Below, piece after piece: positions 2,523 to 63,500 of a stretch of 64,000 nucleotides of DNA. This DNA comes from Acidobacteriota bacterium. Lineage in GTDB: Bacteria > Acidobacteriota > UBA6911 > RPQK01 > DATIPO01. Where the stretch lies: NCBI GenBank assembly GCA_035471925.1, contig DATIPO010000203.1:15426-79425 (forward strand). Reading direction: 5' to 3'. The position numbers were made by a program, and so were the translations under genes. Numbering within the stretch: position 1 is the stretch's first letter; every line of letters begins with the position of its first letter. The notes below the pieces were generated by a model, which saw nothing but the letters and a program-made list of their open reading frames with translations, was not told where the DNA came from and did no database searches.

Positions 2523-2552
2523 CGTCCCGGCTGAAACCTCATTCAGTCCTGG

Positions 2553-2880
2553 CTCGCTGAAGGCAAGCCACGTGCCCTCCTTCGCCGAGGCCATGCAGGT
2601 GTCAGGCGTTGAAAGCCATAGTCAGAGCTCGCTGAAGGCGAGCCATGTCCCCTCCTTCGCCGAGGCCATGCAGGTGTCAAGCGTTGAAAGCCATCGTCCG
2701 GGCTCGCTGAAGGCGAGCCATAGGCCAGCCCAGGGTAGAGCGAAGCCGCGCAGCGGCAGGGCGGCACCCTGGGTCCAGATGACCAAACCAAACGAACCCT
2801 GAGAGGGTGGAATGGCGGTACTTCGAAGCCCTCGGTTGCGGTTTGCAGGGACATTGGTGCCCCCTCTGAAAATGTGCCCC
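2553..2880. repeat. Intergenic structured repeat, copy A: three tandem ~75-bp units, each starting with hairpin GGCTCGCTGAAGGCGAGCC, followed by a ~100-nt conserved tail
   Basis: Units at about 2553-2627, 2628-2703 and 2704-2780 share the hairpin. The third unit and its downstream tail are homologous to loci at 52713-52795 and 63326-63500. Confidence 0.6.
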
Positions 2881-2954: not shown

Positions 2955-3449
2955 ATGCAGGTCACGATCAGGAAGGCGTCCGTGGAGGACGCCGCCGAGG
3001 TCGTTGCGGTGATCAATACGGTCATCGCGGAAGGCGGCTTGACGCTCTTCGACAAGCCCTTTTCGGTTGACCAGGAGCGACGTTTCATCGCTTCCCTAGA
3101 CGAGAGGAGCGCCCTTTTTGTCGCCCAATCGCCTCAGGGCATCGTCGGCGTCCAATCGGTGGACGGCTTTTCTGACTACTCCGCGTCAGGACGTCACGTC
3201 GCCACCATCGGCACCTGGCTCCTGCCCGAAGCCCGCGGCAGCGGTGCGGCCACTCTTCTGGCCCGAGAATCCTTCCGCTTCGCCCGTGCAAACGGATACG
3301 AAAAAGTCGTCATCCAGGTCTTGGCTGAAAACGCCCGCGCCCTGGCCTTCTACCGCAAGCTGGGCTTCCAATCCATCGGCACCGCCCGCCGCCACGTCAA
3401 ACTCAATGGCCGGTATCATGACGAGGTGTTTCTGGAGAGATTTTTCTAG
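2955..3449 (+). CDS. GNAT family N-acetyltransferase
   Basis: MQVTIRKASVEDAAEVVAVINTVI... acetyl-CoA binding-like motif RGSGAATLL. The ORF-track start at 2874 lies inside the repeat, so the internal ATG at 2955 is preferred. Confidence 0.65.
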   Translation: MQVTIRKASVEDAAEVVAVINTVIAEGGLTLFDKPFSVDQERRFIASLDERSALFVAQSPQGIVGVQSVDGFSDYSASGRHVATIGTWLLPEARGSGAATLLARESFRFARANGYEKVVIQVLAENARALAFYRKLGFQSIGTARRHVKLNGRYHDEVFLERFF

Positions 3450-51021: not shown

Positions 51022-52233
51022 GTGAACCAGAGCCCAGGACATTCTGAAACGACGCATGGCGAGTCCAAGGTCGTCGTGGGCGTGGTGGGCGCAGGGACCA
51101 TGGGCCGGGGCATCGCCCAAGTGGCGGCTACCGCGGGTCATCCCCTCCTGCTCTACGATTCCGACCCGGACGTCATAGCTGAAGCTCGTGCTTTCCTGAA
51201 CAAGATCCACGACCGCCTGGTGGAGAAAGGCCGGCTGTCGCGGGAGGAAGCCGACGCCATTCTTGCACGCATTCAGGACGCCGAGGAGATCGCCGACCTG
51301 GCTTCTTCATCCCTGATCGTCGAGGCCATCATCGAGAATCTGGACGTCAAGCGTGAGGTCTTCTCTCATCTGGAAGACATGGTTGAGGACGAGGTGCTGC
51401 TGGCTACCAACACTTCTTCCCTCTCGGTCACCTCGGTGGCTTCTTCCTGCCGGCGTCCTCAGCGGGTGCTGGGCGCCCACTTCTTCAATCCCGCTCCCTT
51501 GATGGCGTTGGTGGAGATCGTGCCCGGACTGGCCACCTCCGACAGCGCCCTGGAATGCTGCCGGGGATTGATCGATTCCTGGGGCAAGACCACTGTCCTG
51601 GCCAAGGACACGCCCGGATTCATTGTCAACCGGGTGGCCCGTCCCTTCTACGGCGAGGCGCTGCGCATCTTTGACGAGGGCATCGCTGACGCGGCCACAA
51701 TCGACTGGGCCATGCGCGAGTTCGGCGACTTCCGCATGGGGCCTTTCCAACTCATGGACCTGATCGGCAACGACGTCAACCTCAAGGTAACCGAGTCGGT
51801 CTTCGAGGCCTTCTACTATGACCCGCGCTTCAAGCCCTCCTTCACCCAGAAGCGCATGGTTGAGGCGGGACGACTGGGACGCAAGTCGGGCCGCGGGTAC
51901 TACGATTACTCCGACCAGGCCCAAGCGCCCCAGCCCAACAAGAATCCTGACTTGGGCCAGCGCATCTTCGACCGAATCCTGGCCATGCTCATCAACGAGG
52001 CCGCTGACGCCGTCTTCATGCAGGTGGCCAGCGCCGAGGACGTCGACTTGGCCATGACCAAGGGCGTGAACTATCCCCAAGGATTGCTGGAATGGGCCGA
52101 CGAGATCGGTCCTGAAGTGGTTTTGCGCCGCATTGAGGAGCTTCAGGCCGAGTACGGCGAAGACCGCTACCGCCCCAACCCTCTCCTGCGCCGCGTCGTC
52201 CGCCAGGGCCTCCGCTTCCGCCAGTCGTTCTAG
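51022..52233 (+). CDS. paaH: 3-hydroxyacyl-CoA dehydrogenase (3-hydroxyadipyl-CoA dehydrogenase type)
   Basis: GTG start; NAD-binding VGVVGAGTMGRGIA; 3HCDH N- and C-domains. Confidence 0.75.
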   Translation: MNQSPGHSETTHGESKVVVGVVGAGTMGRGIAQVAATAGHPLLLYDSDPDVIAEARAFLNKIHDRLVEKGRLSREEADAILARIQDAEEIADLASSSLIVEAIIENLDVKREVFSHLEDMVEDEVLLATNTSSLSVTSVASSCRRPQRVLGAHFFNPAPLMALVEIVPGLATSDSALECCRGLIDSWGKTTVLAKDTPGFIVNRVARPFYGEALRIFDEGIADAATIDWAMREFGDFRMGPFQLMDLIGNDVNLKVTESVFEAFYYDPRFKPSFTQKRMVEAGRLGRKSGRGYYDYSDQAQAPQPNKNPDLGQRIFDRILAMLINEAADAVFMQVASAEDVDLAMTKGVNYPQGLLEWADEIGPEVVLRRIEELQAEYGEDRYRPNPLLRRVVRQGLRFRQSF

Positions 52234-52712
52234 ATGGCATTTCTGACGGGTTGTCGTGGCGAGGGGCCGCAGGTGCCGTGATGACAAGGCGTCGCGAGCG
52301 AGGGCAACGCAGTCAGCGCGGATGGATGGGCACCGCAGCCGACCACCTGTGAGAAATGCAAGCTGGGCGTTTCAAGTGCATGCCCCCCGCACAGAGCCAT
52401 AAGATGAGGGCTTGGGGCGGAAGCATGGCAGTCGGAGACAAGTTCTGGCAAGCCATCTCAGCGGCCTTCCACGAGGCGGTATCCGGCCACTCCCTTCTTC
52501 GCTAAGGCTATCGAGGGCAGGCGGCGCTGGGGGCTTGCGTCGGCCTTCGATGTGGTGACATCTGGACTCATAGTGCCTCAAAGAAAGGCGTGCTCTTCAG
52601 GTTGCGAACCTTTTGTAGAATATCATGCCAATCGAGCCGTTATCCCCATGGTGATATGCATGTTGAGCGCCGTGGACTGTGTTGGCCGGGGACGGTGTCG
52701 AATGTCGAGTCC

Positions 52713-52795
52713 GGGCTCGCTGTAGGCGAGCCATAAGCTAGCCCAGGGTCAGCCGGGGCGAGCACAGCGAGGCGCGGCGCCACCCTGGGGTTGAG
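52713..52795. repeat. Intergenic structured repeat, copy B
   Basis: GGGCTCGCTGTAGGCGAGCCATAAGCTAGCCCAGGGT...CACCCTGGGG, homologous to 2704-2780 and 63326-63400. Sits in a 634-bp non-coding gap inside the paa cluster. Confidence 0.55.
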
Positions 52796-52868
52796 GCATT
52801 CTTGAGGGGAAGACGCTGAAAGCGTGAAATAAAAAAAGCGGACGTGGCAACTAAATCAGGAAGGAAAC

Positions 52869-54074
52869 ATGAAGGAAGCTTTCATCATCGATGCTGTGCG
52901 AACCCCGGTGGGCAAGATCGGCGGGACGCTTTCGCCGATCCGGGCCGACGACATGGCCGCCCTGGTCATCGAAGAGATCCTGCGGCGCAATGAGTCGCTG
53001 GACCCTGCGGCAGTCGAGGACGTGATCATGGGCTGCGCCAATCAAGCCGGCGAGGACAACCGCAATGTTGCCCGCATGGCGCTCCTTTTGGCGGGATTGC
53101 CGCAGAGCGTCCCGGGCGAAACCGTCAACCGCCTCTGCGCTTCGGGACTCAGCGCCGCCGCCAGCGCCGCGCGCGCCCTCCAAGTGGGCCAGGGCGACGT
53201 CTTCATCGCCGGAGGCGTCGAGCAAATGACCCGCGCCCCCTACGTGCTCTCCAAGCCGTCCTACGCCTTCGGACGCGACGCCCAGCTCTTCGACACCAGC
53301 CTGGGATGGCGCTTCGTCAATCCCAAGATGAAGCGTCTCTACGGCTGCGATGCCATGGGCGAGACGGCCGAGAACGTGGCCGAGGAATACTCCATTTCCC
53401 GCGAGGACCAGGACCGCTTCGCCCTGCGCTCCCAGCAAAAGGCCGCCAAGGCGCGGGGGGAGGGCCGCTTCCTCCGCGAGATCGTGCCCGTCGAGATTCC
53501 TCAGCGCAAGGCCGACCCCATCCTCTTCCAAGAGGACGAGTACATCCGTCCTGACACCTCGCTGGAGGCCCTCTCCAAGCTGCGCACGGTCTTCCGCGAA
53601 AACGGCTGCGTTACCGCGGGCAACGCCTCAGGACTCAACGACGGTGCCTGCGCCGTCCTGCTGGCCAGTCCCGAGGGCGCCCGCCGCTTCGGATTCCAGC
53701 CTCGGGCCCGTTTCATCACCTCCGCGGTGGTGGGCGTAGAGCCACGCCTGATGGGCATGGGACCGGTCGACGCCACCCGCAAAGTCCTCGACCGCGCCGG
53801 ACTGGCTCTCGACCAGATCGACGTCATCGAACTCAACGAGGCCTTCGCGGCCCAGTCCTTGGCCTGCCTGCGCCAACTGGGCGTCGATGACGACGATCCC
53901 CGCGTCAACCCCAACGGCGGCGCCATCGCGCTGGGTCATCCCTTGGGAATGTCGGGCGCCCGCCTCCTCACAACCGCCCTCAACGAGCTGGAGGCGCAAG
54001 ACAAGCGCTATGCCCTCTGCACTCTGTGCGTCGGCGTCGGCCAGGGAATGGCCGCCGTCATCGAACGCCTGTAG
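52869..54074 (+). CDS. paaJ: acetyl-CoA C-acyltransferase (3-oxoadipyl-CoA thiolase type)
   Basis: Thiolase active-site regions (NRLCASGL..., NPNGGAIALGHPLGMSGARL, CVGVGQGMA). Confidence 0.8.
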   Translation: MKEAFIIDAVRTPVGKIGGTLSPIRADDMAALVIEEILRRNESLDPAAVEDVIMGCANQAGEDNRNVARMALLLAGLPQSVPGETVNRLCASGLSAAASAARALQVGQGDVFIAGGVEQMTRAPYVLSKPSYAFGRDAQLFDTSLGWRFVNPKMKRLYGCDAMGETAENVAEEYSISREDQDRFALRSQQKAAKARGEGRFLREIVPVEIPQRKADPILFQEDEYIRPDTSLEALSKLRTVFRENGCVTAGNASGLNDGACAVLLASPEGARRFGFQPRARFITSAVVGVEPRLMGMGPVDATRKVLDRAGLALDQIDVIELNEAFAAQSLACLRQLGVDDDDPRVNPNGGAIALGHPLGMSGARLLTTALNELEAQDKRYALCTLCVGVGQGMAAVIERL

Positions 54075-54351
54075 GGGTTCCGCAACAGCCGCAGAGGGCA
54101 CAGTGGAGCCGAGAGCCCATCCGAGGGTGCACTGCAGGTCGTGGCGCAAGCGAGGTTTTCGACTGCCGGCTAACACCCGCAACTCTCACGGGTGGGCTTG
54201 CTTCGTTGCCGCATCCATCCGGCCTGACTGCGCTGCGCTCGGTCGGACTGCTCAAAGTACCCTGCAGTACCTCGCCGCGGGCCTCGGTCGCGACGCCTTG
54301 TCAGTATGGCGCCTGCGGTTTCTCGTGACGACAACCCGCGAGAAACGTGGA

Positions 54352-55536
54352 CTAGCTGCGGCGCAGGGTCTGCGACGGGGGCGGCCAGGGGACGCCGGAG
54401 TCGATTGAGCGATTGGCCTGGTAATCGTGCCCATTCTCGTCGCGGATCAGCCTTGGCAGGTAGACCTCGAAGGTTGTGCCTTGCCCTGGTTCGCTCTCCA
54501 GGGTGATGACGCCGCCCAGGCTGCGCACGATGCCGTGTACGACTGAGAGGCCCAATCCCGTCCCCTCGCCCACTTCGCTGGTGGTGAAGAAGGGATCGAA
54601 GACGTGCCTGGCCACTCCCGAGTCGATGCCATGTCCGCTGTCGCCGATGGTGAATTTGATGAAGGGACCCATGTACTCGTTGCGGTCTTCAGCCAGAAGT
54701 CCCAGGCAGTCGCCTTCGGCTTCGCTGAGGCTGACGTGAAGCTGGCCCCCTTCGGCGTTCATAGCCTTGACGGCGTTGCGCACCAACTGCTGGACCACTT
54801 CCTGCAATTCCGCCGGATCGGCCGAGACCCGCGCGTCCACATCGGGCAATTTCAGGTCGAGAGTAACGTTTTCTGGCAGTTCCTTGGTCAATGGCTGCAG
54901 GCATTGACGCAGTGAATCACGCAGGACCAGGGGACGCCTCTGGAGGCGGCTGCTTCCGCTGAAGACCAGCATCTGCTCCACCAAGTCATGGGCCCGCCCT
55001 CCGGCCTGCTGGACCTCGCGCAGGCGTTCGGCATTGCGGCTGTCCTGGGGAAGGTCGTCCAGCACCAGGGCCGAATAGCCCATCATGACCGAAAGCAGAT
55101 TGTTGAAGTCGTGGGCGATGCCTCCGGCCAGGATGCCCAGGCTTTCCAGCCGTGAACGGTGTTTGAGATTGGGTTGTCGCAGGTTGGAGAGGTCGCGCAG
55201 AAAGCAGCAGATGCGCCCCTCCTCGCTGCGGCTGTAAAAGAGGCTGAGTTCGGCTTGCAACGCCCTCTGTCCGGGACGGCTGAGGACGGTCTCGATGCGG
55301 GCGCTGCCGGCTTGCGAGGCGCGTTCCAGCTTGCGCCTGAGAGTGGATTGGTCGGCGGGAGGCACCAGATGGACAAGATCGCTGCTCAGCAGGTCCTCGC
55401 GGCGGTAGCCGCTCAAGCGGCAGGCGGAGGGGTTGGCCTCCAACACCCGCCCCTTGCGGTCGAGAAGCAAGAAACCCTCTTCGGCCTCTTGCAAGAGAGG
55501 TTCGACGGGCCCTTGGTTCAGACGAAAATCAGACAT
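54352..55536 (-). CDS. PAS-domain sensor histidine kinase (orphan, no adjacent response regulator)
   Basis: PAS (LLDRKGRVLEANPSACRLSGY), HisKA H-box (IAHDFNNLL), HATPase_c G-boxes (DSGHGID, GTGLGLS). Confidence 0.75.
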   Translation of the reverse strand: MSDFRLNQGPVEPLLQEAEEGFLLLDRKGRVLEANPSACRLSGYRREDLLSSDLVHLVPPADQSTLRRKLERASQAGSARIETVLSRPGQRALQAELSLFYSRSEEGRICCFLRDLSNLRQPNLKHRSRLESLGILAGGIAHDFNNLLSVMMGYSALVLDDLPQDSRNAERLREVQQAGGRAHDLVEQMLVFSGSSRLQRRPLVLRDSLRQCLQPLTKELPENVTLDLKLPDVDARVSADPAELQEVVQQLVRNAVKAMNAEGGQLHVSLSEAEGDCLGLLAEDRNEYMGPFIKFTIGDSGHGIDSGVARHVFDPFFTTSEVGEGTGLGLSVVHGIVRSLGGVITLESEPGQGTTFEVYLPRLIRDENGHDYQANRSIDSGVPWPPPSQTLRRS

Positions 55537-57970: not shown

Positions 57971-58124
57971 GCTTTTTTCCTCTGCTGGGCCGACATGGCC
58001 CTTATGTTAGCAGGAAGGCGTCAGGGGACGCTGTTTTCAGAAAATGAGCCGTGGGTGTGAGGGGAACCGCCAAGCAGCAACGTTGATTGAGGTTGAACAA
58101 GTACCTCCCACTTGGATGCAGTCG

Positions 58125-58157
58125 AAAAAGGGCCTCCTCCCCTCGAGGCCCTTTTTC
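58125..58157. terminator. bidirectional intrinsic-terminator-like hairpin (AAAAA-GGGCCTC-loop-GAGGCCC-TTTTT) in the 5' region of the ABC operon
   Basis: 7-bp GC stem flanked by an A5 and a T5 run. It sits between divergent gene starts, which argues for a leader or attenuator or a small RNA rather than a gene-end terminator. Confidence 0.4.
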
Positions 58158-58247
58158 ATTGGTCCTGAGAAACCGCCGGTCCAGAACAGTGCTGGTCCTG
58201 AAAAGCCGCCCTCCCGGTCGCTCGGCCTCTATAATGGCCTGGAAAAC

Positions 58248-59273
58248 ATGGCTGCCAACCTCGATACCCACTCAGATCTGGATACCGTTCCGGTGGTCTC
58301 CCGGGAGTCTCGTCCCCTTCTCGGGACCCACCACCTCAGCAAAAGCTTCGGCAAAGTTCGGGCTGTGGACGACCTCTCCATTTCGGTTCCTCCGGGCAAG
58401 ATCTACGGCTTTCTGGGACGCAACGGAGCCGGGAAGACCACCACTCTGCGCATGCTGATGGGAATCATCAGGCCCGACCAAGGCCAGATCGAATTGGACG
58501 CCCAGCGCTTCCAGCGCATCGGCAACGCTCAGAAGCGCTCCATCGGATACGTGTCGCAGGAGCAGTATTTCTATCCCTGGATGACCTGCGCCGCCATCGG
58601 CAAGTTCGTGTCGGGCTTTTATCCCACCTGGGACGAGGCCGAATACGGGCGACTGACAGGACTGCTGGAGCTGCCCCCTGAACGCAAGATCTCGGCTCTC
58701 TCCGGCGGCATGAAAGTCAAGCTGGCGCTGGCCTTGGCCCTGGCCCACCGTCCGCGGCTGCTGGTGCTGGACGAACCCACGTCAGGACTCGATCCTTACG
58801 CCCGCCGCGAGTTTCTCGACATGATCGCCGGCCAGGCCCGCAAGTACGGACGCACTACCCTCTTTTCGTCGCACATCATCGAGGAGGTGGAACGGGTGGC
58901 CGACTTGGTGGGCATCATTCACGACGGACGGCTACTTTACGAGGGCGATCTGCCGACCCTCAAGCGCTCCGTGCGCCGCCTGGTTCAGCCGCCGCCGCAA
59001 TCCGAACAGCCTTGGGACGACACTTCGGCCGACACCATGGGAGCCGGCTTGGACGCTCCCGACGCCGCCCCCCAGGAGGAAGAACTGCACCGGCCCATCC
59101 TTGACGATCTGGAAGTGTTACGCGACACCACCCTGCCCAACGGCAGCCGCGAAATGGTGCTCTTCGGCAATCCCCACACTTGGGAGCAGTGGCGCATCCC
59201 GCCTTCGCGCACCGAAGACATGTCCCTGGAGGACATTTTCATCGCTCTGACCGGGAAAAGGCCTGAGCTATGA
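58248..59273 (+). CDS. ABC transporter ATP-binding protein (ABC-2/DrrA-like) with a ~110-aa C-terminal extension
   Basis: Walker A GRNGAGKTT, signature LSGGMKVKLALALAL, Walker B LLVLDEPTSGLD, H-loop. Start at ATG 58248 (MAANLD); the ORF-track start at 58044 adds an unlikely leader. Confidence 0.8.
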   Translation: MAANLDTHSDLDTVPVVSRESRPLLGTHHLSKSFGKVRAVDDLSISVPPGKIYGFLGRNGAGKTTTLRMLMGIIRPDQGQIELDAQRFQRIGNAQKRSIGYVSQEQYFYPWMTCAAIGKFVSGFYPTWDEAEYGRLTGLLELPPERKISALSGGMKVKLALALALAHRPRLLVLDEPTSGLDPYARREFLDMIAGQARKYGRTTLFSSHIIEEVERVADLVGIIHDGRLLYEGDLPTLKRSVRRLVQPPPQSEQPWDDTSADTMGAGLDAPDAAPQEEELHRPILDDLEVLRDTTLPNGSREMVLFGNPHTWEQWRIPPSRTEDMSLEDIFIALTGKRPEL

Positions 59274-61153
59274 AGACATGGCTGATTCTGGTCCGCAAGG
59301 AGGTCCGACAGCACCTCTGGGCCCTGGCGGGACTGCTGCTGATCTGCATGCTGGCCTATCTCAATCTGGTCGCCTATTCCCTGACCGAGGCGGCGCCATC
59401 AGCGCCTCTGCAGGCTCTGCGCGCCTTCCTGATCGTGTACATGCCGCTGACGGCGTTGCTGCTCAGCGGACGCCTGGTGGTGGCCGAGTACAGCGCCGGC
59501 ACCCAGGTCTTTCTGGAGGGGCTGCCTCTGGCCCGGGTCACCATGGTGACGGTCAAATACCTCCTGGGACTGGTGCTGCTTTTCCTGGCCCTGGCGCTGG
59601 CCCTGACCCTGGCCTTCTCCTTCTCATCGGTTCAGCCCGACCTGCGCCAGTCGACCATCATCGCCTTGCGCAGCGCCGTCTACCTTTGGACGATTTATTC
59701 GTTTTTCTTCTTGGGCGGGTTTCTGGGACGCTACCGCTTCCCTTTTTACGGGCTGGTGGGACTGGGCTTCCTGCTGCTGACTTACTCCACCGACGTTGAC
59801 CTTTCGCGCTGGGGCCCTTTCGCCTTGGTCGACAATACGCTGGCCTTCGAACGCAGCAACTTGCCCTGGATGGCCCTGCTCTGGAGCGCCGCATTGCTGA
59901 TTGTCCTCACTTCTGCGGCCTATGCCCTGGCCCTGATCCGCGAAGGATCGGTGGCGGCTTTGACGGCCCAGAAGATGTCCTACCGCGAGAAGATCGCCTT
60001 CACCATGGTCTTCATGGCCTTCCTCACCACCTTCACTTACCTGGATGAACGCAAAGATCCCGAGCCCTTTGAGCTGGTCCTCGGCAGCTCGGCTCATGAC
60101 GGATACGCCACGGCCACCGTGCTGACGGCCTATGAGAGCGAGGAGACGGACCATCAGATGGCCCAGGAGTGGAGCCGCGAATTGGCTGCCATGCAGCGTT
60201 TTCTCGATTTGGCCTGGGTTCCCCAGGTCTTCATCGTCGAGCGCACCGACCTCGATCCCGATCTCTTTGAGCAGGGCCAGATCCAGGACGCCTCAGGCGT
60301 CTTGGCGCGGGCTCACATCACCCATCCCGACTTCCGGGCGGGCGCCTTCAAAGCCTGGCTGCTGCGGCGTGTCTTGCTGGACGCTTCACGGCAGCGGCTG
60401 GAGGAGGAGACCTACGCTTGGGTCCTCGACGGATTCTCTCTCTACTGGCTCGACGAGCGCTCTCAGATCGACCGCGGAATCCTCATGCTGCGCGCCCTGT
60501 GGGCCGTCCCCCAAGAGGACGAACTCGAAGCCGCCTTGTTGGGCCGCTGGCTGTCGGTGCGCGAGCAGTTGGGCCAGGAGGTGGCAGCCGGACTGGCTTA
60601 CTCGGGCTTGGCCGCCTTGCGCCAACGCTGCGGACCGGAAGGCGTCCAAGACTTTCTGCGCCGCGTCCTGGCTACCCCCGTCCCCCGCGACTTGAGGGCC
60701 CTGTGGACGGCTCCCGCCGCCCGTCCGGTTCGGGCCCTGCAAGAGGCCTGCGGACTTTCGCTCGAGGAACTGGTGCAAGACTGGAAGGCCCTGCTGGCCG
60801 AGAACCGCCGCCAGTCAGGACTCCTCGTGGAGTCCCTGCCCCGCCTTGAGATGGACCTTGAAGTGGAAGCTTTCTCGTCCCTCTCGCGCGGCCTCCGCCA
60901 CCGCATCACGGTCACGCCCCGGCCAGCCCAGGCGCTGCTGCTGGAGGTCCGCTACGGGCGCCTTCAAGGGCTGGAAGTCCGCAAAGAGCCTCAAAAGCTG
61001 CATCTGCAAGTCGTACGCTATCCCGACCGGGCCGAGGACGCCCTCCCCGGCACCTACACGCCGGGCGAGCGCGTCTATGCGGCGGCTCAGCTCTATGTCC
61101 CCCTGCTCAGATGCAATGTGGTGTCGGGCTGGCGCGCCTGGGAGGTGGACTGA
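59270..61153 (+). CDS. ABC-2-type permease (6 TM) fused to a large C-terminal extracytoplasmic M1/gluzincin-like domain whose HEXXH motif is degenerate
   Basis: ATGA overlap with the ATPase. The N-terminal ~260 aa is hydrophobic, ABC-2-like. The C-terminal ~360 aa is homologous to the next gene, but the motif position reads YAWVLDGFSLYWLDE in place of HETAHVLID...EGLASYLE. Confidence 0.6.
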   Translation: MKTWLILVRKEVRQHLWALAGLLLICMLAYLNLVAYSLTEAAPSAPLQALRAFLIVYMPLTALLLSGRLVVAEYSAGTQVFLEGLPLARVTMVTVKYLLGLVLLFLALALALTLAFSFSSVQPDLRQSTIIALRSAVYLWTIYSFFFLGGFLGRYRFPFYGLVGLGFLLLTYSTDVDLSRWGPFALVDNTLAFERSNLPWMALLWSAALLIVLTSAAYALALIREGSVAALTAQKMSYREKIAFTMVFMAFLTTFTYLDERKDPEPFELVLGSSAHDGYATATVLTAYESEETDHQMAQEWSRELAAMQRFLDLAWVPQVFIVERTDLDPDLFEQGQIQDASGVLARAHITHPDFRAGAFKAWLLRRVLLDASRQRLEEETYAWVLDGFSLYWLDERSQIDRGILMLRALWAVPQEDELEAALLGRWLSVREQLGQEVAAGLAYSGLAALRQRCGPEGVQDFLRRVLATPVPRDLRALWTAPAARPVRALQEACGLSLEELVQDWKALLAENRRQSGLLVESLPRLEMDLEVEAFSSLSRGLRHRITVTPRPAQALLLEVRYGRLQGLEVRKEPQKLHLQVVRYPDRAEDALPGTYTPGERVYAAAQLYVPLLRCNVVSGWRAWEVD

Positions 61154-63081
61154 TGGCGTCCCCCTTCAGAGTTCTGGTCGGCAAAGAACTGCTGGCCTTC
61201 CGGCCGTTCCTGGCCTTTTCGGTCTTTCTGGCAGTGCTGGACTCGGTGCTGGTGCTGCTGACCGAGTATCCGACTCGAGTCAGGCTCGACTTTCTGACCA
61301 CCCAGCACTCCGACTCGGCGGCCGTCCTCTTCTTCATCTTTGCGGCGCTGGCGCTGGCGCTGACCTCGGGCATCCTGCTGCGCGAATACGACGAGAGGAC
61401 GCTGGAATTCCTCGACGGCCTGCCCGTTTCCCGCAGCCAGCTTTTCGCCGCCAAGGTCCTGGCCGCGCTGGGAACGGTCATGGCCTACCCTCTGCTCGCC
61501 TCGCTGGAGGGCTTGGTCATGCATGCCTTCGCCCGCGACTCTCTCCATCAGGCCTGGCATCTTGGCCTGCTGGCTCAGTCGCTCTGGCTCGACGGTGTCT
61601 TGATTCTCTTTTTGATCGGTGTGGGAACGCTTCTCTCCCTGCTCAGGCGCTTTTCCTGGATGGCGGCGCTGTTGATGATCTTCTCCTTTCGTCTGGCCGC
61701 CGGGTGGTTTCCCGCCCTGGAAGGCTACAGCCCGCTCGTCCTCATCGCGCCTCCCATACGCGGCGGACTCTACGTCGTTCCCTGGAAAGCCGTCTTGGCG
61801 CTGGGCTCGATCGGCCTGCTTTCGCTGCTCCTGGCCTGGGTCCAGTTCGCACGGGGAAGCGACTGGCTGCTCATTGCCTGGGGACGCTTTCAGCGCTCCA
61901 CGCCCGGAAAGATACTGCTGGTCTTGGCCCTGTTCCCGGTCCTCGGCGTGTGCATTTTCCTGTTGGCCTCCTTTGCGCTCGAAGACCCGCCGCCCGCGGG
62001 CGTCCAAGTCGACTCCGACTTGGGCAGCGCCGAAGTCCGATTTCCAGACTGGAAGACGGCTGAGCTTCGGACCCAACTCTATGAGTTCGTCTATCCTTCC
62101 AACCTCCGCTCCCGGGTGCTGGAGCTGGCGCCTGTGGCCGACGCTGCGGGGCGCAAAGTCTTCGACTTCTTCCAAACCGAGCCCGGAGAGCCTATCGCCG
62201 TCGACGCCACCGCCAACGATGCCACCCACTATGCCGGGTTGGCCGAATGGCAGAGCATCACCTTGGCCTTGGCCCATCAGCCCGACCTGAAAGAACTGGA
62301 AGGCACCCTGGTCCATGAGACGGCCCACGTGCTCATCGACGAGCTTTCCAACCGCCGTTTGAGGGATCATTTCAATACCGTTCGGGTCTTTCACGAGGGG
62401 CTGGCCTCCTACCTGGAGCATGACTTCGTCCTGACCGAGAAGCGAGCCCAACTGCGGTTTCCAGCAATAGTGCTGCGCGACCGGCGACTCTTCGACTTCG
62501 AGTTGATGGCCGACAGCACGCGCTTGGAAGCCGAGCTGGGCATCGAGGTGATTTATTCGCTGGGCGAACGCCTGGCCGCCACCCTGGTAAAGGGCATGGG
62601 TCAGGACGGCATCGTCTGCCTGCTGCGAAATCCCGACTTGGCCGCAGGGCTGCGCCATCTGCAGGGCGTCCCCTTCTGGCAGGCCTGGATTCAGTCCTGC
62701 GGCCATGACCTGGAGAGCCTGCTGGGAGACTTCTATCTAGCCCTCGATCAGGACGCCCGCCGCCTGCGCGGGCAGATCGACGCCCTGCCGCGTCCGCGGG
62801 GACGCATCGAAGTCGAGGAAGGCAACATTCTGGTCTACGTGTTGGCCCCCGGGCTGCCCAAGCCCTGGGAACCCGTGTGCCGCTTCAAGTCCGACCCCCA
62901 GGCGAGTGTCGACGACGTCCACGTCTCCTACGCCTATCTTGAGGAGCCTTGCAGGGCCGAAGCCCAGTCGATCGCCCCTAACGGCACCTTCTACCTGCAA
63001 ATCGGCATCACCAACTTCGACGCCGGCTACACCCTCTACGAACCCTGGTTCCCCGCCACTACCACCCCCGCCGCCCAGTGA
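61153..63081 (+). CDS. ABC-2-type permease (6 TM) fused to a C-terminal M1/gluzincin-like zinc-metallopeptidase domain (HEXXH...E intact)
   Basis: TGATG overlap with the previous gene. LVHETAHVLIDE...(23 aa)...EGLASYLE is the gluzincin HEXXH plus downstream-Glu arrangement. Paralog of the upstream gene. Confidence 0.6.
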   Translation: MASPFRVLVGKELLAFRPFLAFSVFLAVLDSVLVLLTEYPTRVRLDFLTTQHSDSAAVLFFIFAALALALTSGILLREYDERTLEFLDGLPVSRSQLFAAKVLAALGTVMAYPLLASLEGLVMHAFARDSLHQAWHLGLLAQSLWLDGVLILFLIGVGTLLSLLRRFSWMAALLMIFSFRLAAGWFPALEGYSPLVLIAPPIRGGLYVVPWKAVLALGSIGLLSLLLAWVQFARGSDWLLIAWGRFQRSTPGKILLVLALFPVLGVCIFLLASFALEDPPPAGVQVDSDLGSAEVRFPDWKTAELRTQLYEFVYPSNLRSRVLELAPVADAAGRKVFDFFQTEPGEPIAVDATANDATHYAGLAEWQSITLALAHQPDLKELEGTLVHETAHVLIDELSNRRLRDHFNTVRVFHEGLASYLEHDFVLTEKRAQLRFPAIVLRDRRLFDFELMADSTRLEAELGIEVIYSLGERLAATLVKGMGQDGIVCLLRNPDLAAGLRHLQGVPFWQAWIQSCGHDLESLLGDFYLALDQDARRLRGQIDALPRPRGRIEVEEGNILVYVLAPGLPKPWEPVCRFKSDPQASVDDVHVSYAYLEEPCRAEAQSIAPNGTFYLQIGITNFDAGYTLYEPWFPATTTPAAQ

Positions 63082-63325
63082 CCCTGGCGTCCTCGTGCGG
63101 GGACGCACCCTGTGTGGAACGTCATGGCCGATCCAGCCAACGCCTCGACGACCCGCAGCGAAGGGACGCTGACCGCCGCAGCCGGATAGTCCCATCGCAG
63201 AGCGAACTCGGCCTCGGCCACTCGTTGAAGTTTGCGGCTTAGGCCCGGGCCAGGTTGCGGTAGAGGATGACGCCGATGTCGGGGCGGAGAGGATGCGCCT
63301 TAGGGGTGCTTTGCAACTCAAGTCT

Positions 63326-63500
63326 GGGCTCCCTGAATGGGAGCCATAGGCCAGCCCAGTGTAGAGCGAAAGCGCGCAGCGGTTGAGCGGCACCCTGGGT
63401 AAGAAACCAACAAGAAAGGAACTCTGAAAAGGGTGCAATAGCGGACCCTCGAGGGTGCCGTGTTGCGGACTTCGCGACAGCCTCCTCAAGCGGTTGCGTT
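63326..63500. repeat. Intergenic structured repeat, copy C (hairpin with compensatory changes plus conserved tail)
   Basis: GGGCTCCCTGAATGGGAGCCATAGGCCAGCCCAGTGTAGAGCGAAAGCGCGCAGCGG...GGCACCCTGGGT, then a ~100-nt tail homologous to 2780-2880. Confidence 0.55.

What the first reader, a model, noticed from the sequence alone, without database searches (positions are those of the whole stretch)
2553..2880. Structured intergenic repeat family (three loci) with compensatory base changes in a hairpin: candidate sRNA or REP/MITE
Homologous elements occur at 2553-2880, 52713-52795 and 63326-63500, always intergenic. The core is a hairpin followed by a second long inverted repeat, CCCAGGGT...ACCCTGGG. 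Between copies the hairpin stem shows paired substitutions that preserve pairing (GGCTCGCTG-AAG-GCGAGCC vs GGCTCCCTG-AAT-GGGAGCC), the hallmark of selection on structure. Copies A and C share a further ~100-nt conserved tail, so the unit may be a ~180-nt RNA. Copy A also contains a local triplication of the hairpin unit.
Basis: seen in the sequence. Interest (0 to 1): 0.55.

Follow-up and report, generated by a model that had tools for sequence, protein, structure and literature searches.

The report
Enlarged Acido-Lenti-1-type intergenic RNA repeat
Three copies of a roughly 160-base, three-hairpin spacer element in an Acidobacteriota genome are an enlarged variant of the known but uncharacterised Acido-Lenti-1 RNA motif, lying in the same direction as the neighbouring genes and missing from the same two spacers checked in the nearest available relative.

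Summary
Three homologous elements lie at 2681-2841, 52694-52839 and 63308-63468, all on the + strand and all between co-directional + genes. Copy A is preceded by a 75-nt tandem array (2.4 units). Each unit has three hairpins. Compensated double substitutions occur in H1 (copy C) and H3 (copy B), and RNAalifold adds a third in the H2 interior. Support is modest: 24 of 500 shuffles, and P about 0.008 in my simulation.

The core is not a new class. Read on the minus strand it has the Acido-Lenti-1 (RF01687) architecture: an 8-bp P1, a 12-nt linker and P2. P1 carries a 29-32 nt insertion, so Rfam scores stay below threshold (16.7 and 13 bits against 37). A profile I built from the published seed, with a free P1 loop, ranks the three copies top in the window (37.4, 35.0 and 23.2 bits; simulated maximum 22.1).

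Wobble pairs, folding energies, GNRA loops in the seed and gene context in Koribacter all favour the gene-sense strand, opposite to the Rfam orientation.

The closest available relative lacks the element at the orthologous B and C spacers. The exact core was found in no public collection.

Best reading: a lineage-specific, proliferating variant of a multicopy intergenic RNA module, probably co-transcribed. An independent sRNA gene is not supported, and strict REP or MITE membership fails.

The parts
2545..2721 (+). Tandem array, 75-nt unit x 2.4. Each unit holds an H1 hairpin (2551-2569, 2626-2644, 2701-2719) followed by CCCTCCTTCGCCGAGGCCATGCAGG and a leader. The array starts 23 nt after the stop codon of the permease gene (63-2522).
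   Evidence: TRF; the repeat finder D3; pattern search; sequence
2681..2841 (+). Copy A, full unit: leader 2681-2700, H1 2701-2719, linker ATAGGCCAG 2720-2728, H2 2729-2773 (8-bp base CCCAGGGT/ACCCTGGG plus a 29-nt apical extension), A/C-rich spacer 2774-2795, H3 2796-2808 (ACCCT-GAG-AGGGT), tail 2809-2841.
   Evidence: BLAST; block coordinates; folds; CM R1 142 bits
52694..52839 (+). Copy B, the most diverged: H1 52714-52732, linker ATAAGCTAG 52733-52741, H2 52742-52789 (32-nt apical part of different sequence that still pairs), H3 52813-52825 (ACGCT-GAA-AGCGT, compensated), then GAAAT-A7-GCGGAC. Its end is 30 nt before the thiolase ATG (52869).
   Evidence: (112 bits)
63308..63468 (+). Copy C: H1 63327-63345 (GGCTCCC-TGAAT-GGGAGCC, compensated), linker 63346-63354, H2 63355-63399 (one T.C mismatch), purine-rich spacer, H3 63421-63434 (ACTCT-GAAA-AGGGT, with a U.G wobble), tail to 63468.
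   Evidence: (129 bits)
2703..2773 (-). Acido-Lenti-1-like core of copy A in the Rfam orientation: P1 CCCAGGGU[29 nt]ACCCUGGG, 12-nt linker CUGGCCUAUGGC, P2 UCGCC-UUC-AGCGA.
   Evidence: Rfam 13 bits, E 2.2; seed-derived profile 35.0 bits
52716..52789 (-). Acido-Lenti-1-like core of copy B: P1 with a 32-nt insert, linker CUAGCUUAUGGC, P2 UCGCC-UAC-AGCGA.
   Evidence: Rfam 16.7 bits, E 0.05-0.29; seed-derived profile 37.4 bits
63329..63399 (-). Acido-Lenti-1-like core of copy C.
   Evidence: Seed-derived profile 23.2 bits, third best in the window; no Rfam hit at E<=10

Best explanation
What it is. The element is a lineage-specific, enlarged variant of the Acido-Lenti-1 motif family (Rfam RF01687). 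That family is a multicopy intergenic two-hairpin element of Acidobacteria, Lentisphaerae and relatives whose function has never been established. Here the canonical core (P2, a 12-nt linker, P1) has a P1 stem whose 4-nt loop is replaced by a 29-32 nt extension. As in the Koribacter versatilis copies, the core is followed on the gene-sense strand by a purine-rich spacer and a small GC hairpin (H3). Together these make a unit of about 160 nt.

Shown:
- The copies are homologous to one another.
- Base pairing is preserved through substitutions.
- They sit in the same orientation as both flanking genes.
- They are absent from the two orthologous spacers that could be inspected in the nearest relative.
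- One module has been tandemly amplified at locus A.

Inferred:
- The functional strand is the gene-sense (+) strand, so the element is transcribed as part of the flanking mRNAs. It carries no terminator on that strand, so an operon such as paaH-paaJ can read through it.
- It acts in cis as a folded RNA module, for example as a barrier to 3' exonucleases or as a processing site.
- Its reverse complement (H3 plus a T-rich run) would stop antisense transcription.
- The family spreads by insertion or duplication into spacers by a mechanism not visible in this window.
For: Family resemblance:
- Rfam gives the same Acidobacteria-associated family as top sub-threshold hit for copies A and B.
- The published seed alignment (PMC2864571, supplementary file 183) has P1 CCYAG..CYRGG, a 12-nt linker CUAnnnUAUGnC, and P2 with a UUC or UAC loop. 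Our minus strand reads CCCAGGGU[..]ACCCUGGG-CU(G/A)GC(C/U)UAUGGC-UCGCC-U(U/A)C-AGCGA.
- A pair-aware profile from that seed with a free P1 loop puts the three copies at ranks 1-3 of the window: 37.4, 35.0 and 23.2 bits. The next hit scores 20.0, the maximum over 20 simulated windows is 22.1, and the seed rows score 33.9-61.1.
- 0 of 1000 column-permuted profiles reach those scores. About half the score is sequence-specific.

Wider unit. The Koribacter copies carry a GC hairpin plus a U-rich spacer in the same relative position as H3 plus its spacer here.

Structure:
- 93% of cells are paired, with three compensated pairs.
- P(at least 2 compensated) = 0.008.

Strand:
- The + strand folds 7-10 kcal/mol better than the minus strand for copies B and C.
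- H3 of copy C uses U.G on the + strand, which is C.A on the minus strand.
- In the seed, A.C mismatches outnumber G.U pairs 38 to 8.
- The P1 loop is GNRA in 47 of 70 distinct seed rows on the unannotated strand, against 1 of 70 as annotated.
- 10 of 11 Koribacter copies have their nearest 3'-side gene on that other strand, stop codon towards the motif; in about 8 the stop is within some 15 nt of the motif or inside it.

Proliferation:
- The paaH-paaJ spacer is 33 nt in the relative and 636 nt here.
- The relative's ABC2-NTPase spacer (320 nt) has no copy.
- The CM and the seed profile find nothing in about 58 kb of related loci.
- The exact core is absent from 185,579 species genomes, the JGI metagenomes and IMG/VR.
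- The published seed coordinates show tandem arrays as a family trait, which matches the 75-nt array at locus A.
Against: - Rfam's own model scores only 16.7 and 13 bits against a gathering score of 37, and gives nothing for copy C. The stronger link rests on a scoring scheme I wrote myself, calibrated on only 20 simulated windows.
- Only three copies are available. The rest of the genome could not be retrieved, so covariation statistics are weak (24 of 500 shuffles).
- There are no expression data. The strand call rests on a few wobble pairs and on seed statistics that are phylogenetically correlated; most of the A.C cases sit in two columns.
- Copies B and C lie 480 and 245 nt from the upstream stop codon, unlike most Koribacter copies.
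- Compensatory changes in palindromes can also arise without selection on RNA, by template switching within quasi-palindromes.
- The mechanism of spread is unknown. No transposase, integrase or reverse transcriptase was seen among the 38 ORFs scanned in the window.
Confidence: 0.55

Rival explanations
1. Purely selfish mobile DNA of the MITE, REP or IS200/IS605-derived PATE type. The hairpins would be recognition structures for a transposase acting on single-stranded DNA. The RNA would have no role, and paired substitutions would come from templated repair within quasi-palindromes.
For: - Presence/absence differs between related genomes.
- The family is restricted to this lineage.
- No terminal inverted repeats are shared, and all copies lie on one strand, as expected for hairpin-dependent single-strand transposons.
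- The same spacers hold other repeat families.
- The relative carries different repeats of its own.
Against: - No Y1 transposase or any other transposase was found among the ORFs scanned.
- There is no GTAG or CGTC tag in the REP position. GTAG lies inside H2 in copies A and C only.
- No conserved flanking target motif could be defined.
- Wobble pairs and the GNRA loops in the wider family point to RNA rather than DNA structure.
Confidence: 0.25
2. A family of independently transcribed trans-acting small RNA genes on the minus strand, as the Rfam entry classifies Acido-Lenti-1 (Gene; sRNA).
For: - Rfam type and Weinberg et al. 2010 Table 1 rate it 'RNA? y, cis-reg n'.
- The flanking genes are functionally unrelated.
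- The paralogous copies have conserved single-stranded stretches.
Against: - No promoter-like site was found on either strand.
- On the minus strand the only terminator-like feature (H3 plus a T run) lies upstream of the motif, not downstream (the same holds in Koribacter).
- The minus strand folds no better than shuffled sequence for B and C (z about -1.1).
- The element is missing at the orthologous loci of the relative.
Confidence: 0.12
3. A 5' leader or cis-regulatory element controlling the downstream genes (GNAT acetyltransferase, thiolase, NTPase), for instance through a shared RNA-binding protein or ligand.
For: - All copies lie closer to the downstream start codon than to the upstream stop: H3 ends 147, 44 and 150 nt before the ATG.
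- All copies share the orientation of the downstream gene.
Against: - The downstream genes share no function.
- The orthologous thiolase and NTPase genes of the relative lack the element.
- There is no similarity between A and C from the end of the unit to the ATG.
- In Koribacter the motif hugs the upstream stop codon instead.
Confidence: 0.06
4. Chance similarity among ordinary GC-rich hairpins or terminators, with no real family.
For: The genome is GC-rich, so hairpins are common. H1-like hairpins occur by chance in viral contigs.
Against: - 160-nt alignments with E 1e-26.
- The core pattern is expected 0.01 times and observed 3 times.
- CM scores of 112-142 bits.
Confidence: 0.01

Closest known systems
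Acido-Lenti-1 RNA motif (Rfam RF01687; Weinberg et al. 2010, PMC2864571)
   Same: - Phylum (Acidobacteria).
- Multicopy and intergenic.
- 8-bp P1 with CCCAG.../...CUGGG ends.
- A linker of exactly 12 nt starting CU(A/G) with UAUG.C.
- P2 hairpin with a UUC or UAC loop context.
- A neighbouring GC hairpin separated by a pyrimidine-rich (on the sense strand, purine-rich) spacer, as in the Koribacter copies.
- Orientation opposite (in Rfam terms) to the adjacent genes.
- Tendency to form tandem arrays.
   Different: - The P1 loop of 4 nt (GNRA on the other strand) is replaced by a 29-32 nt irregular extension.
- The P2 stem is 7 bp with a 5-nt loop rather than 5 bp with a 3-nt loop.
- The base after P2 is C, not U.
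- Rfam scores are 13-17 bits against a gathering score of 37.
- Copies B and C are far from the upstream stop codon.
- The tandem array at locus A repeats only the P2 module plus unrelated sequence.
BOX elements of Streptococcus pneumoniae (Croucher et al. 2011, PMC3049150) and other mosaic intergenic repeats (BIME, RIME)
   Same: - Modular small interspersed repeats under 200 bp.
- One module is tandemly amplified in some copies.
- Extensive predicted secondary structure.
- Inserted between genes and co-transcribed with them.
   Different: - No sequence relation.
- BOX has terminal inverted repeats and target-site duplications and is AT-biased. This element has no shared TIR and has genome-typical GC (58-66%).
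REP elements mobilised by RAYT transposases, and TIR repeats mobilised by TIRYT transposases (Di Nocera et al. 2013, PMC3733652)
   Same: - GC-rich palindromic intergenic repeats.
- Located mainly between unidirectional or convergent genes.
- Thought to act as RNA hairpins.
- Acidobacteria do carry TIRYT-associated repeat families.
   Different: - REPs are 20-40 bp single stem-loops tagged by a terminal GTAG or CGTC and are often paired head-to-head.
- Here the unit is about 160 nt with three hairpins and single copies all in one orientation.
- No tyrosine transposase was seen.
MITEs
   Same: - Short, non-coding, multicopy and structured.
- Presence/absence differs between relatives.
   Different: No terminal inverted repeats shared by the copies, no definable target-site duplication, and no related IS in the window.

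Membership tests
Acido-Lenti-1 (RF01687) | Score at or above the Rfam gathering threshold (37 bits) with the curated covariance model | tested here: not met
   16.7 bits for B, 13.0 bits for A, none for C at E<=10, and no hit at gathering level.
Acido-Lenti-1 (RF01687) | P1: 8-bp stem, 5' CCYRG... and 3' ...CYRGG | tested here: met
   CCCAGGGU/ACCCUGGG in A and B; one mismatch in C. P1 pairs contribute 19.0, 19.0 and 12.5 bits in the seed-derived profile.
Acido-Lenti-1 (RF01687) | P1 closed by a 4-nt loop (UCAC or UUAC as annotated; GUGA or GUAA on the other strand) | tested here: not met
   29 nt (A, C) or 32 nt (B) lie between the P1 arms and form an irregular extended hairpin.
Acido-Lenti-1 (RF01687) | 12-nt single-stranded linker CU(A/G)nnnnAUnnC between P1 and P2 | tested here: met
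   CUGGCCUAUGGC (A, C) and CUAGCUUAUGGC (B), 12 nt in the register of the seed. The linker scores +4.6 to +9.0 bits.
Acido-Lenti-1 (RF01687) | P2: 5-bp stem with a 3-nt loop (UUC or UAC), followed by U | tested here: inconclusive
   UCGCC-UUC-AGCGA fits four of the five pairs. The real stem here is 7 bp with a 5-nt loop, and the trailing base is C. P2 pairs score +6.4, +6.4 and +1.1 bits.
Acido-Lenti-1 (RF01687) | Overall sequence-plus-structure fit comparable with seed members when the P1 loop length is left free | tested here: met
   37.4 and 35.0 bits for B and A fall within the seed range of 33.9-61.1. C scores 23.2. The simulated-window maximum is 22.1, and 0 of 1000 permuted profiles reach the observed scores. 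This is my own scoring scheme, not Infernal.
Acido-Lenti-1 (RF01687) | Taxon and context: Acidobacteria or Lentisphaerae, intergenic, multicopy | tested here: met
   The source is an Acidobacteriota MAG, with three intergenic copies in 64 kb.
REP (GTAG/CGTC super-families) | 20-40 bp stem-loop with a terminal GTAG or CGTC tag | tested here: not met
   The unit is about 160 nt. GTAG occurs only inside the 5' arm/internal loop of H2 in A and C (GTCA in B), not at a stem terminus (definition from PMC3733652).
REP (GTAG/CGTC super-families) | Associated RAYT/TIRYT tyrosine transposase in the genome | not testable with these tools
   None was found among the window ORFs scanned. The rest of the genome could not be retrieved.
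MITE | Terminal inverted repeats shared by the copies | tested here: not met
   The inverted-repeat search of the three spacers found only the internal hairpins and locus-specific pairs.
MITE | Target-site duplication flanking each copy | tested here: inconclusive
   The ends of homology (2681/2841, 63308/63468) show no flanking direct repeat, but the boundaries are uncertain by several bases. The relative's spacers are too diverged to serve as empty sites at base resolution.
Independent sRNA gene | Own promoter and terminator; conserved at the orthologous locus in relatives | tested here: not met
   No promoter-like site and no + strand terminator. The orthologous B and C spacers of the relative lack the element. 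Only sigma-70-type promoters are covered by the scan.
Riboswitch / gene-specific cis-regulator | Consistent association with one gene family or pathway | tested here: not met
   The downstream genes are a GNAT acetyltransferase, a thiolase (paaJ) and a DUF84 NTPase.

The most novel reading that the evidence does not exclude
The whole Acido-Lenti-1 family may be annotated on the wrong strand. On this reading it is a sense-strand 3'-UTR or intercistronic RNA module: a small hairpin, a 12-nt linker that often supplies or abuts the stop codon, a GNRA-capped or extended hairpin, a purine-rich spacer and a GC hairpin. Its complement would form a one-way terminator against antisense transcription. 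The module would spread between spacers and across phyla, and this window would show an expanded-P1 subfamily caught after recent proliferation.
Probability: 0.3. Interest if true: 0.55.

Novelty: new variant of a known kind. Interest (0 to 1): 0.4.

Why it matters
Acido-Lenti-1 has been in Rfam since 2010 with no known function. The only published remarks found here give its taxa and say it sometimes lies near group II introns.

This window adds four things:
- P1 can hold a 30-nt insertion, which hides members from the curated model. The family may therefore be larger than Rfam searches suggest.
- The conserved unit is longer than the 46-nt model, because it includes a spacer and a third hairpin that are also seen in Koribacter.
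- Four independent kinds of evidence favour the strand opposite to the database orientation: wobble pairs, GNRA loops, folding energy and gene context. That would turn a putative sRNA gene into an mRNA-embedded module.
- Copies come and go between related genomes.

Each point can be tested directly with a complete genome and strand-specific RNA-seq. None of it overturns a major idea. It is a useful correction and extension of a minor, uncharacterised family.

Tried and rejected
- Exact-core scans (GAGCCATANGCNAGCCCAGNGT) of the GTDB species genomes and the JGI metagenomes returned only chance hits without the hairpins: L001-L003. Relatives with a diverged core would have been missed.
- Three viral-contig scans gave nothing, or only chance hairpins or coding DNA. 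BLAST against the plasmid collection gave nothing.
- The source contig could not be retrieved by exact protein look-up. The only recovery was a Logan contig of the same population (L005, 99.98% identical), which stops 32 nt before copy C. Its other end lies inside a gene, so I draw no inference from it.
- A concatenated six-frame translation of the three copies, searched against 5.8 billion proteins to fish out spurious ORFs over other copies, found nothing.
- I tested whether the 636-nt paaH-paaJ spacer is a decayed paaI gene, which more distant relatives carry there. tblastn found no remnant.
- I tested whether A/C homology continues to the start codons, because H3-to-ATG is 147 and 150 nt. 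It does not.
- A possible H2/H3 alternative-pairing switch was considered and rejected: copy B's compensated H3 change breaks the alternative pairing.
- A dimeric-protein operator reading of the ACCCT/AGGGT palindromes was rejected, because symmetric changes within one genome fit base pairing rather than a fixed protein.
- Short minus-strand ORFs starting at the conserved ATGGCTC were rejected as coding. The peptide is not conserved (MARLQRART against MAPIQGAQT) and the changes are the stem compensations.
- GC skew was uninformative about replication direction.
Going through the listing of cluster members worked.
Full report
1. THE OBSERVATION

The three loci were read directly. The repeat finder returns one direct-repeat family with copies at 2696-2774, 52709-52787 and 63322-63400. 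A 22-nt core pattern occurs three times without mismatch, against 0.01 expected.

Sensitive BLAST within the window gives the extent of homology:
- A with C: 2681-2841 against 63308-63468, 77% over 164 nt, E 1e-26.
- B with C: 52705-52831 against 63318-63440, 66% over 128 nt.
- A with B: 2696-2773 against 52709-52789, 79%.

Beyond 2841/63468 there is no similarity. Copy A is preceded by a 75-nt tandem array at 2545-2721 with 2.4 units at 90% identity, so three H1 hairpins stand in a row.

A covariance model built from the three copies and run without filters finds exactly these three full copies (142, 129 and 112 bits) and the partial tandem unit (24.6 bits). It finds nothing else in the 64 kb.

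All three copies are on the + strand between + strand genes:
- A: MacB/FtsX permease 63-2522, then GNAT 2955-3449.
- B: 3-hydroxyacyl-CoA dehydrogenase 51022-52233, then thiolase 52869-54074.
- C: ABC-2 permease 61111-63081, then DUF84 NTPase from 63584.

No protein in a 5.8-billion-sequence collection matches any reading frame of the elements. That collection includes this MAG's own annotation.

2. ANATOMY

On the + strand each unit runs as follows (coordinates per copy):
- A leader of about 20 nt.
- H1: 7 bp with a 5-nt loop.
- A 9-nt linker, ATAGGCCAG.
- H2: an 8-bp base CCCAGGGT/ACCCTGGG closing a 29-32 nt irregular apical hairpin. The sequence of the apical part differs in B but still pairs.
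- A 20-23 nt purine/A-rich spacer.
- H3: 5 bp, as ACCCT-GAG-AGGGT, ACGCT-GAA-AGCGT and ACTCT-GAAA-AGGGT.
- GNAAT(R)..GCGGAC, and in A and C about 25 further conserved bases.

RNAalifold recovers H1, H2 and H3.

3. IS THE PAIRING MAINTAINED?

On the MAFFT alignment:
- 93% of pair cells are canonical, against 28-47% when the 3' partners are slid by 1-3 columns.
- Three pairs show changes on both sides: H1 GC to CG in C, H2 interior GC to AU, and H3 CG to GC in B.
- 24 of 500 column shuffles do as well.

In a hand-curated set of 64 unambiguous columns, B differs from A at 6 positions and C at 7. Six of these 13 substitutions fall in stems, and five keep the pair: two compensated doubles and one U.G. 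Placing the same number of substitutions at random gives at least two compensated pairs with P = 0.008.

This is real but thin support, because only three sequences exist. The two extra H1 hairpins in the tandem array each carry one uncompensated mismatch. Template switching within quasi-palindromes could in principle produce paired changes without selection on RNA. That is established knowledge, not something tested here.

4. WHICH STRAND?

- The + strand folds as well as the minus strand for A (-57.4 against -58.1 kcal/mol).
- It folds clearly better for B (-54.4 against -44.2) and for C (-49.6 against -42.6).
- Z-scores are -2.4 to -3.0 on the + strand. They are only -1.1 on the minus strand for B and C.
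- H3 of copy C keeps its pair through U.G on the + strand, which would be C.A on the minus strand.

The consensus scan found no sigma-70-like promoter on either strand and no + strand terminator at any locus. The only terminator-like site is H3 of copy A read on the minus strand (ACCCTCTCAGGGT followed by TCGTTTGGTT). Copy C has an equivalent T-rich run.

5. SOURCE AND RELATIVES

Two window proteins are 100% identical to proteins of an Acidobacteriota MAG, on an 80,022-nt contig. The assembly itself could not be fetched.

The closest retrievable relative is GCA_035471785.1, contig DATIPQ010000017.1. It is about 78% identical in coding DNA and syntenic with window 42.7-63 kb.
- Its paaH and paaJ genes are 33 nt apart, against 636 nt here.
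- Its ABC2-NTPase spacer is 320 nt and shares only the last 45 nt or so before the ATG with the window's 502-nt spacer.
- Neither the covariance model nor the profile of section 6 finds a copy in 30 kb of that contig or in two more distant paa loci.
- The distant loci carry paaI between paaH and paaJ. The window spacer holds no paaI remnant.

An exact scan for the 19 specified bases of the core gave only chance hits in 185,579 species-representative genomes and in the JGI metagenome contigs. A shortened 17-base core gave none in IMG/VR.

The element is therefore lineage-restricted and is not conserved at orthologous sites. Site A could not be reached in the relative.

6. LINK TO A KNOWN FAMILY

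At gathering thresholds Rfam reports nothing. With E-value thresholds the top hit for both A and B is Acido-Lenti-1 (RF01687) on the minus strand: 13.0 bits for A, and 16.7 bits with E 0.05-0.29 for B. This is one of only a handful of Acidobacteria-associated families among 4227.

The seed alignment in the original paper (PMC2864571, supplementary file 183) shows:
- P1 of 8 bp (CCYAG.../...CYRGG) with a 4-nt loop.
- A 12-nt linker, CUAnnnUAUGnC.
- P2 of 5 bp with a UUC or UAC loop.

The window's minus strand reads CCCAGGGU[29-32 nt]ACCCUGGG - CUGGCCUAUGGC - UCGCC UUC AGCGA. This is the same architecture and register. The long insertion in P1 is what defeats the curated model.

To test this I derived position- and pair-specific log-odds from the 70 distinct seed rows. 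I ignored the P1 loop and allowed 3-45 nt there, then scanned both strands.
- The three copies are the three best hits of the window: 37.4, 35.0 and 23.2 bits.
- The next hit scores 20.0.
- Twenty first-order Markov simulations of the window (preserving dinucleotide composition) peak at 12-22.1.
- The seed rows score 33.9-61.1.

About 18.6 bits would be earned by any two canonical hairpins at that spacing. The rest is sequence-specific. None of 1000 profiles with columns permuted within class reaches the observed scores.

The annotated Stockholm file with flanks (supplementary file 61) shows that the Koribacter versatilis copies are preceded, on the annotated strand, by a GC hairpin (GUCCSC-UGNA-GSGGAC) and a 20-40 nt U/C-rich spacer. 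H3 and its spacer occupy that same position here. The seed coordinates also show tandem arrays in Lentisphaera, with periods of 69-74, 110-115 and about 192-200 nt.

7. A SIDE RESULT ON THE FAMILY'S ORIENTATION

In the seed:
- Paired columns contain 38 A.C and 8 G.U cells. A.C becomes G.U on the other strand. Most of the A.C cells sit in two columns, so they are not independent.
- The P1 loop is a GNRA tetraloop in 47 of 70 distinct rows on the unannotated strand (GUGA 23, GUAA 14, and others), against 1 of 70 as annotated.

In the 11 Koribacter rows:
- In 10, the nearest gene on the motif's 3' side lies on the opposite strand with its stop codon towards the motif.
- In about 8 of these the stop codon is within about 15 nt of the motif or inside it. 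In three the UAG lies inside the 12-nt linker.
- One copy is co-oriented with its neighbours and one lies between convergent genes.

Together with section 4, this suggests that the functional strand is the gene-sense one.

8. INTERPRETATION

Shown:
- A homologous, structured, lineage-restricted repeat family with preserved pairing.
- Sense orientation relative to the flanking genes.
- Local tandem amplification.
- Absence at two orthologous sites in the relative.
- Specific similarity to Acido-Lenti-1.

Inferred:
- The element is transcribed within the flanking mRNAs. It lacks a + strand terminator, and copy B sits inside what is a tight paaH-paaJ pair in the relative.
- It acts as a folded cis module. 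Analogies are REP, BIME, ERIC, Correia and BOX elements, which stabilise, attenuate or trigger cleavage of co-transcribed mRNAs (PMC3049150; PMC3733652).
- It spreads by insertion or duplication.

The mobilising mechanism is unknown. No transposase-like gene was found among the 38 window ORFs scanned, and there are no shared terminal inverted repeats.

Rivals, in order of weight: purely selfish DNA whose hairpins serve single-strand transposition; independent minus-strand sRNA genes, as Rfam labels the family; a leader controlling the downstream genes.

9. VERDICT

It is a structured repeat family, but not shown to be an sRNA gene and not a classical REP or MITE.
- It is a new variant of a known, uncharacterised kind.
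- Interest is moderate. The element itself is ordinary for bacterial spacers. It does, however, extend Acido-Lenti-1 and may re-orient it, and it yields directly testable predictions.

Noticed in passing
window 58085-58160 (+); L004 17025-17086; L019 8862-8923: A stretch of about 63 nt, GAACAAGTACCTCCCACTTGGATGCAGTCGAAAAAGGGCC[loop]GGCCCTTTTTC, is 94% identical between the window and the relative, while the surrounding divergent spacer (MscS gene on the minus strand, ABC ATPase on the plus strand) is not conserved. It ends in a GC hairpin plus a T run, with the stem kept and the loop changed, and carries CCUCCC. A conserved TATAAT lies downstream. It looks like a small RNA gene or a leader/attenuator. 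Rfam gives only noise (ar14 14.5 bits, E 1.5).
   Followed up: partly
window 52237-52360 (+) and 54179-54345 (-): A second repeat family: 64-nt arms 81% complementary, extending to about 105 nt at 72%. The two copies flank the thiolase gene in inverted orientation. Each starts 6 nt after a stop codon (paaH at 52233; the histidine kinase gene at 54352 on the minus strand) in the sense of that gene. The 52237-52359 copy has 20-nt inverted ends.
   Followed up: partly
window 2575-2599, 2650-2674, 52492-52522; L004 5155-5204: A short module, CCCTCCTTCGCC(G/A)AGGCCATG(C/G)AGG, occurs twice in the tandem unit of copy A, once about 190 nt upstream of copy B, and in an unrelated spacer of the relative next to a perfect terminator hairpin. 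On the minus strand it reads GAAGGAGG followed 5 nt later by ATG or GTG and a 10-14 codon ORF. Its role is unknown.
   Followed up: partly
Rfam RF01687 seed (PMC2864571 supplementary files 61 and 183): The published orientation of Acido-Lenti-1 may be inverted. On the opposite strand the P1 loop is GNRA in 47 of 70 distinct rows, and 38 A.C mismatches become G.U. In 10 of 11 Koribacter copies the nearest 3'-side gene lies on that opposite strand with its stop codon towards the motif, usually within about 15 nt.
   Followed up: partly
L004 12490-12700; L019 14005-14035: The relative has its own spacer repeats. A pair of inverted arms of about 50 nt containing GGTGGGAGGCGCATCCTTGCGGCGAT, MITE-like and about 95 nt apart, lies in the thiolase-kinase spacer. 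A solo copy lies in the ABC2-NTPase spacer. These are the same spacers that hold different repeats in the window.
   Followed up: no
window 52234-52868; L004 11213-11245; L006 4212-4655; L007 4775-5227: The paa operon of this lineage lacks the paaI thioesterase that sits between paaH and paaJ in more distant relatives. There is no remnant in the window spacer and no paaI homologue elsewhere in the 64 kb.
   Followed up: yes
L005 (Logan SRR9656207 contig) = window 58360-63276: A public-read assembly holds the same population (99.98% identical, one mismatch in 4917 nt). The contig stops 32 nt before the start of copy C homology. Its other end lies inside a gene, so the break may simply reflect low coverage.
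   Followed up: partly
PMC2864571 supplementary file 61, row NC_008009.1/5475783-5476228: Next to one Koribacter Acido-Lenti-1 copy there are three tandem units of another structured repeat (GGCAGCGCUGAAGCGCUGCC CUGAUACAAAGCAAAUUAGCUCCGCUGCGUUCGCGGU). Spacers with stacked repeat families therefore seem common in Acidobacteria.
   Followed up: no
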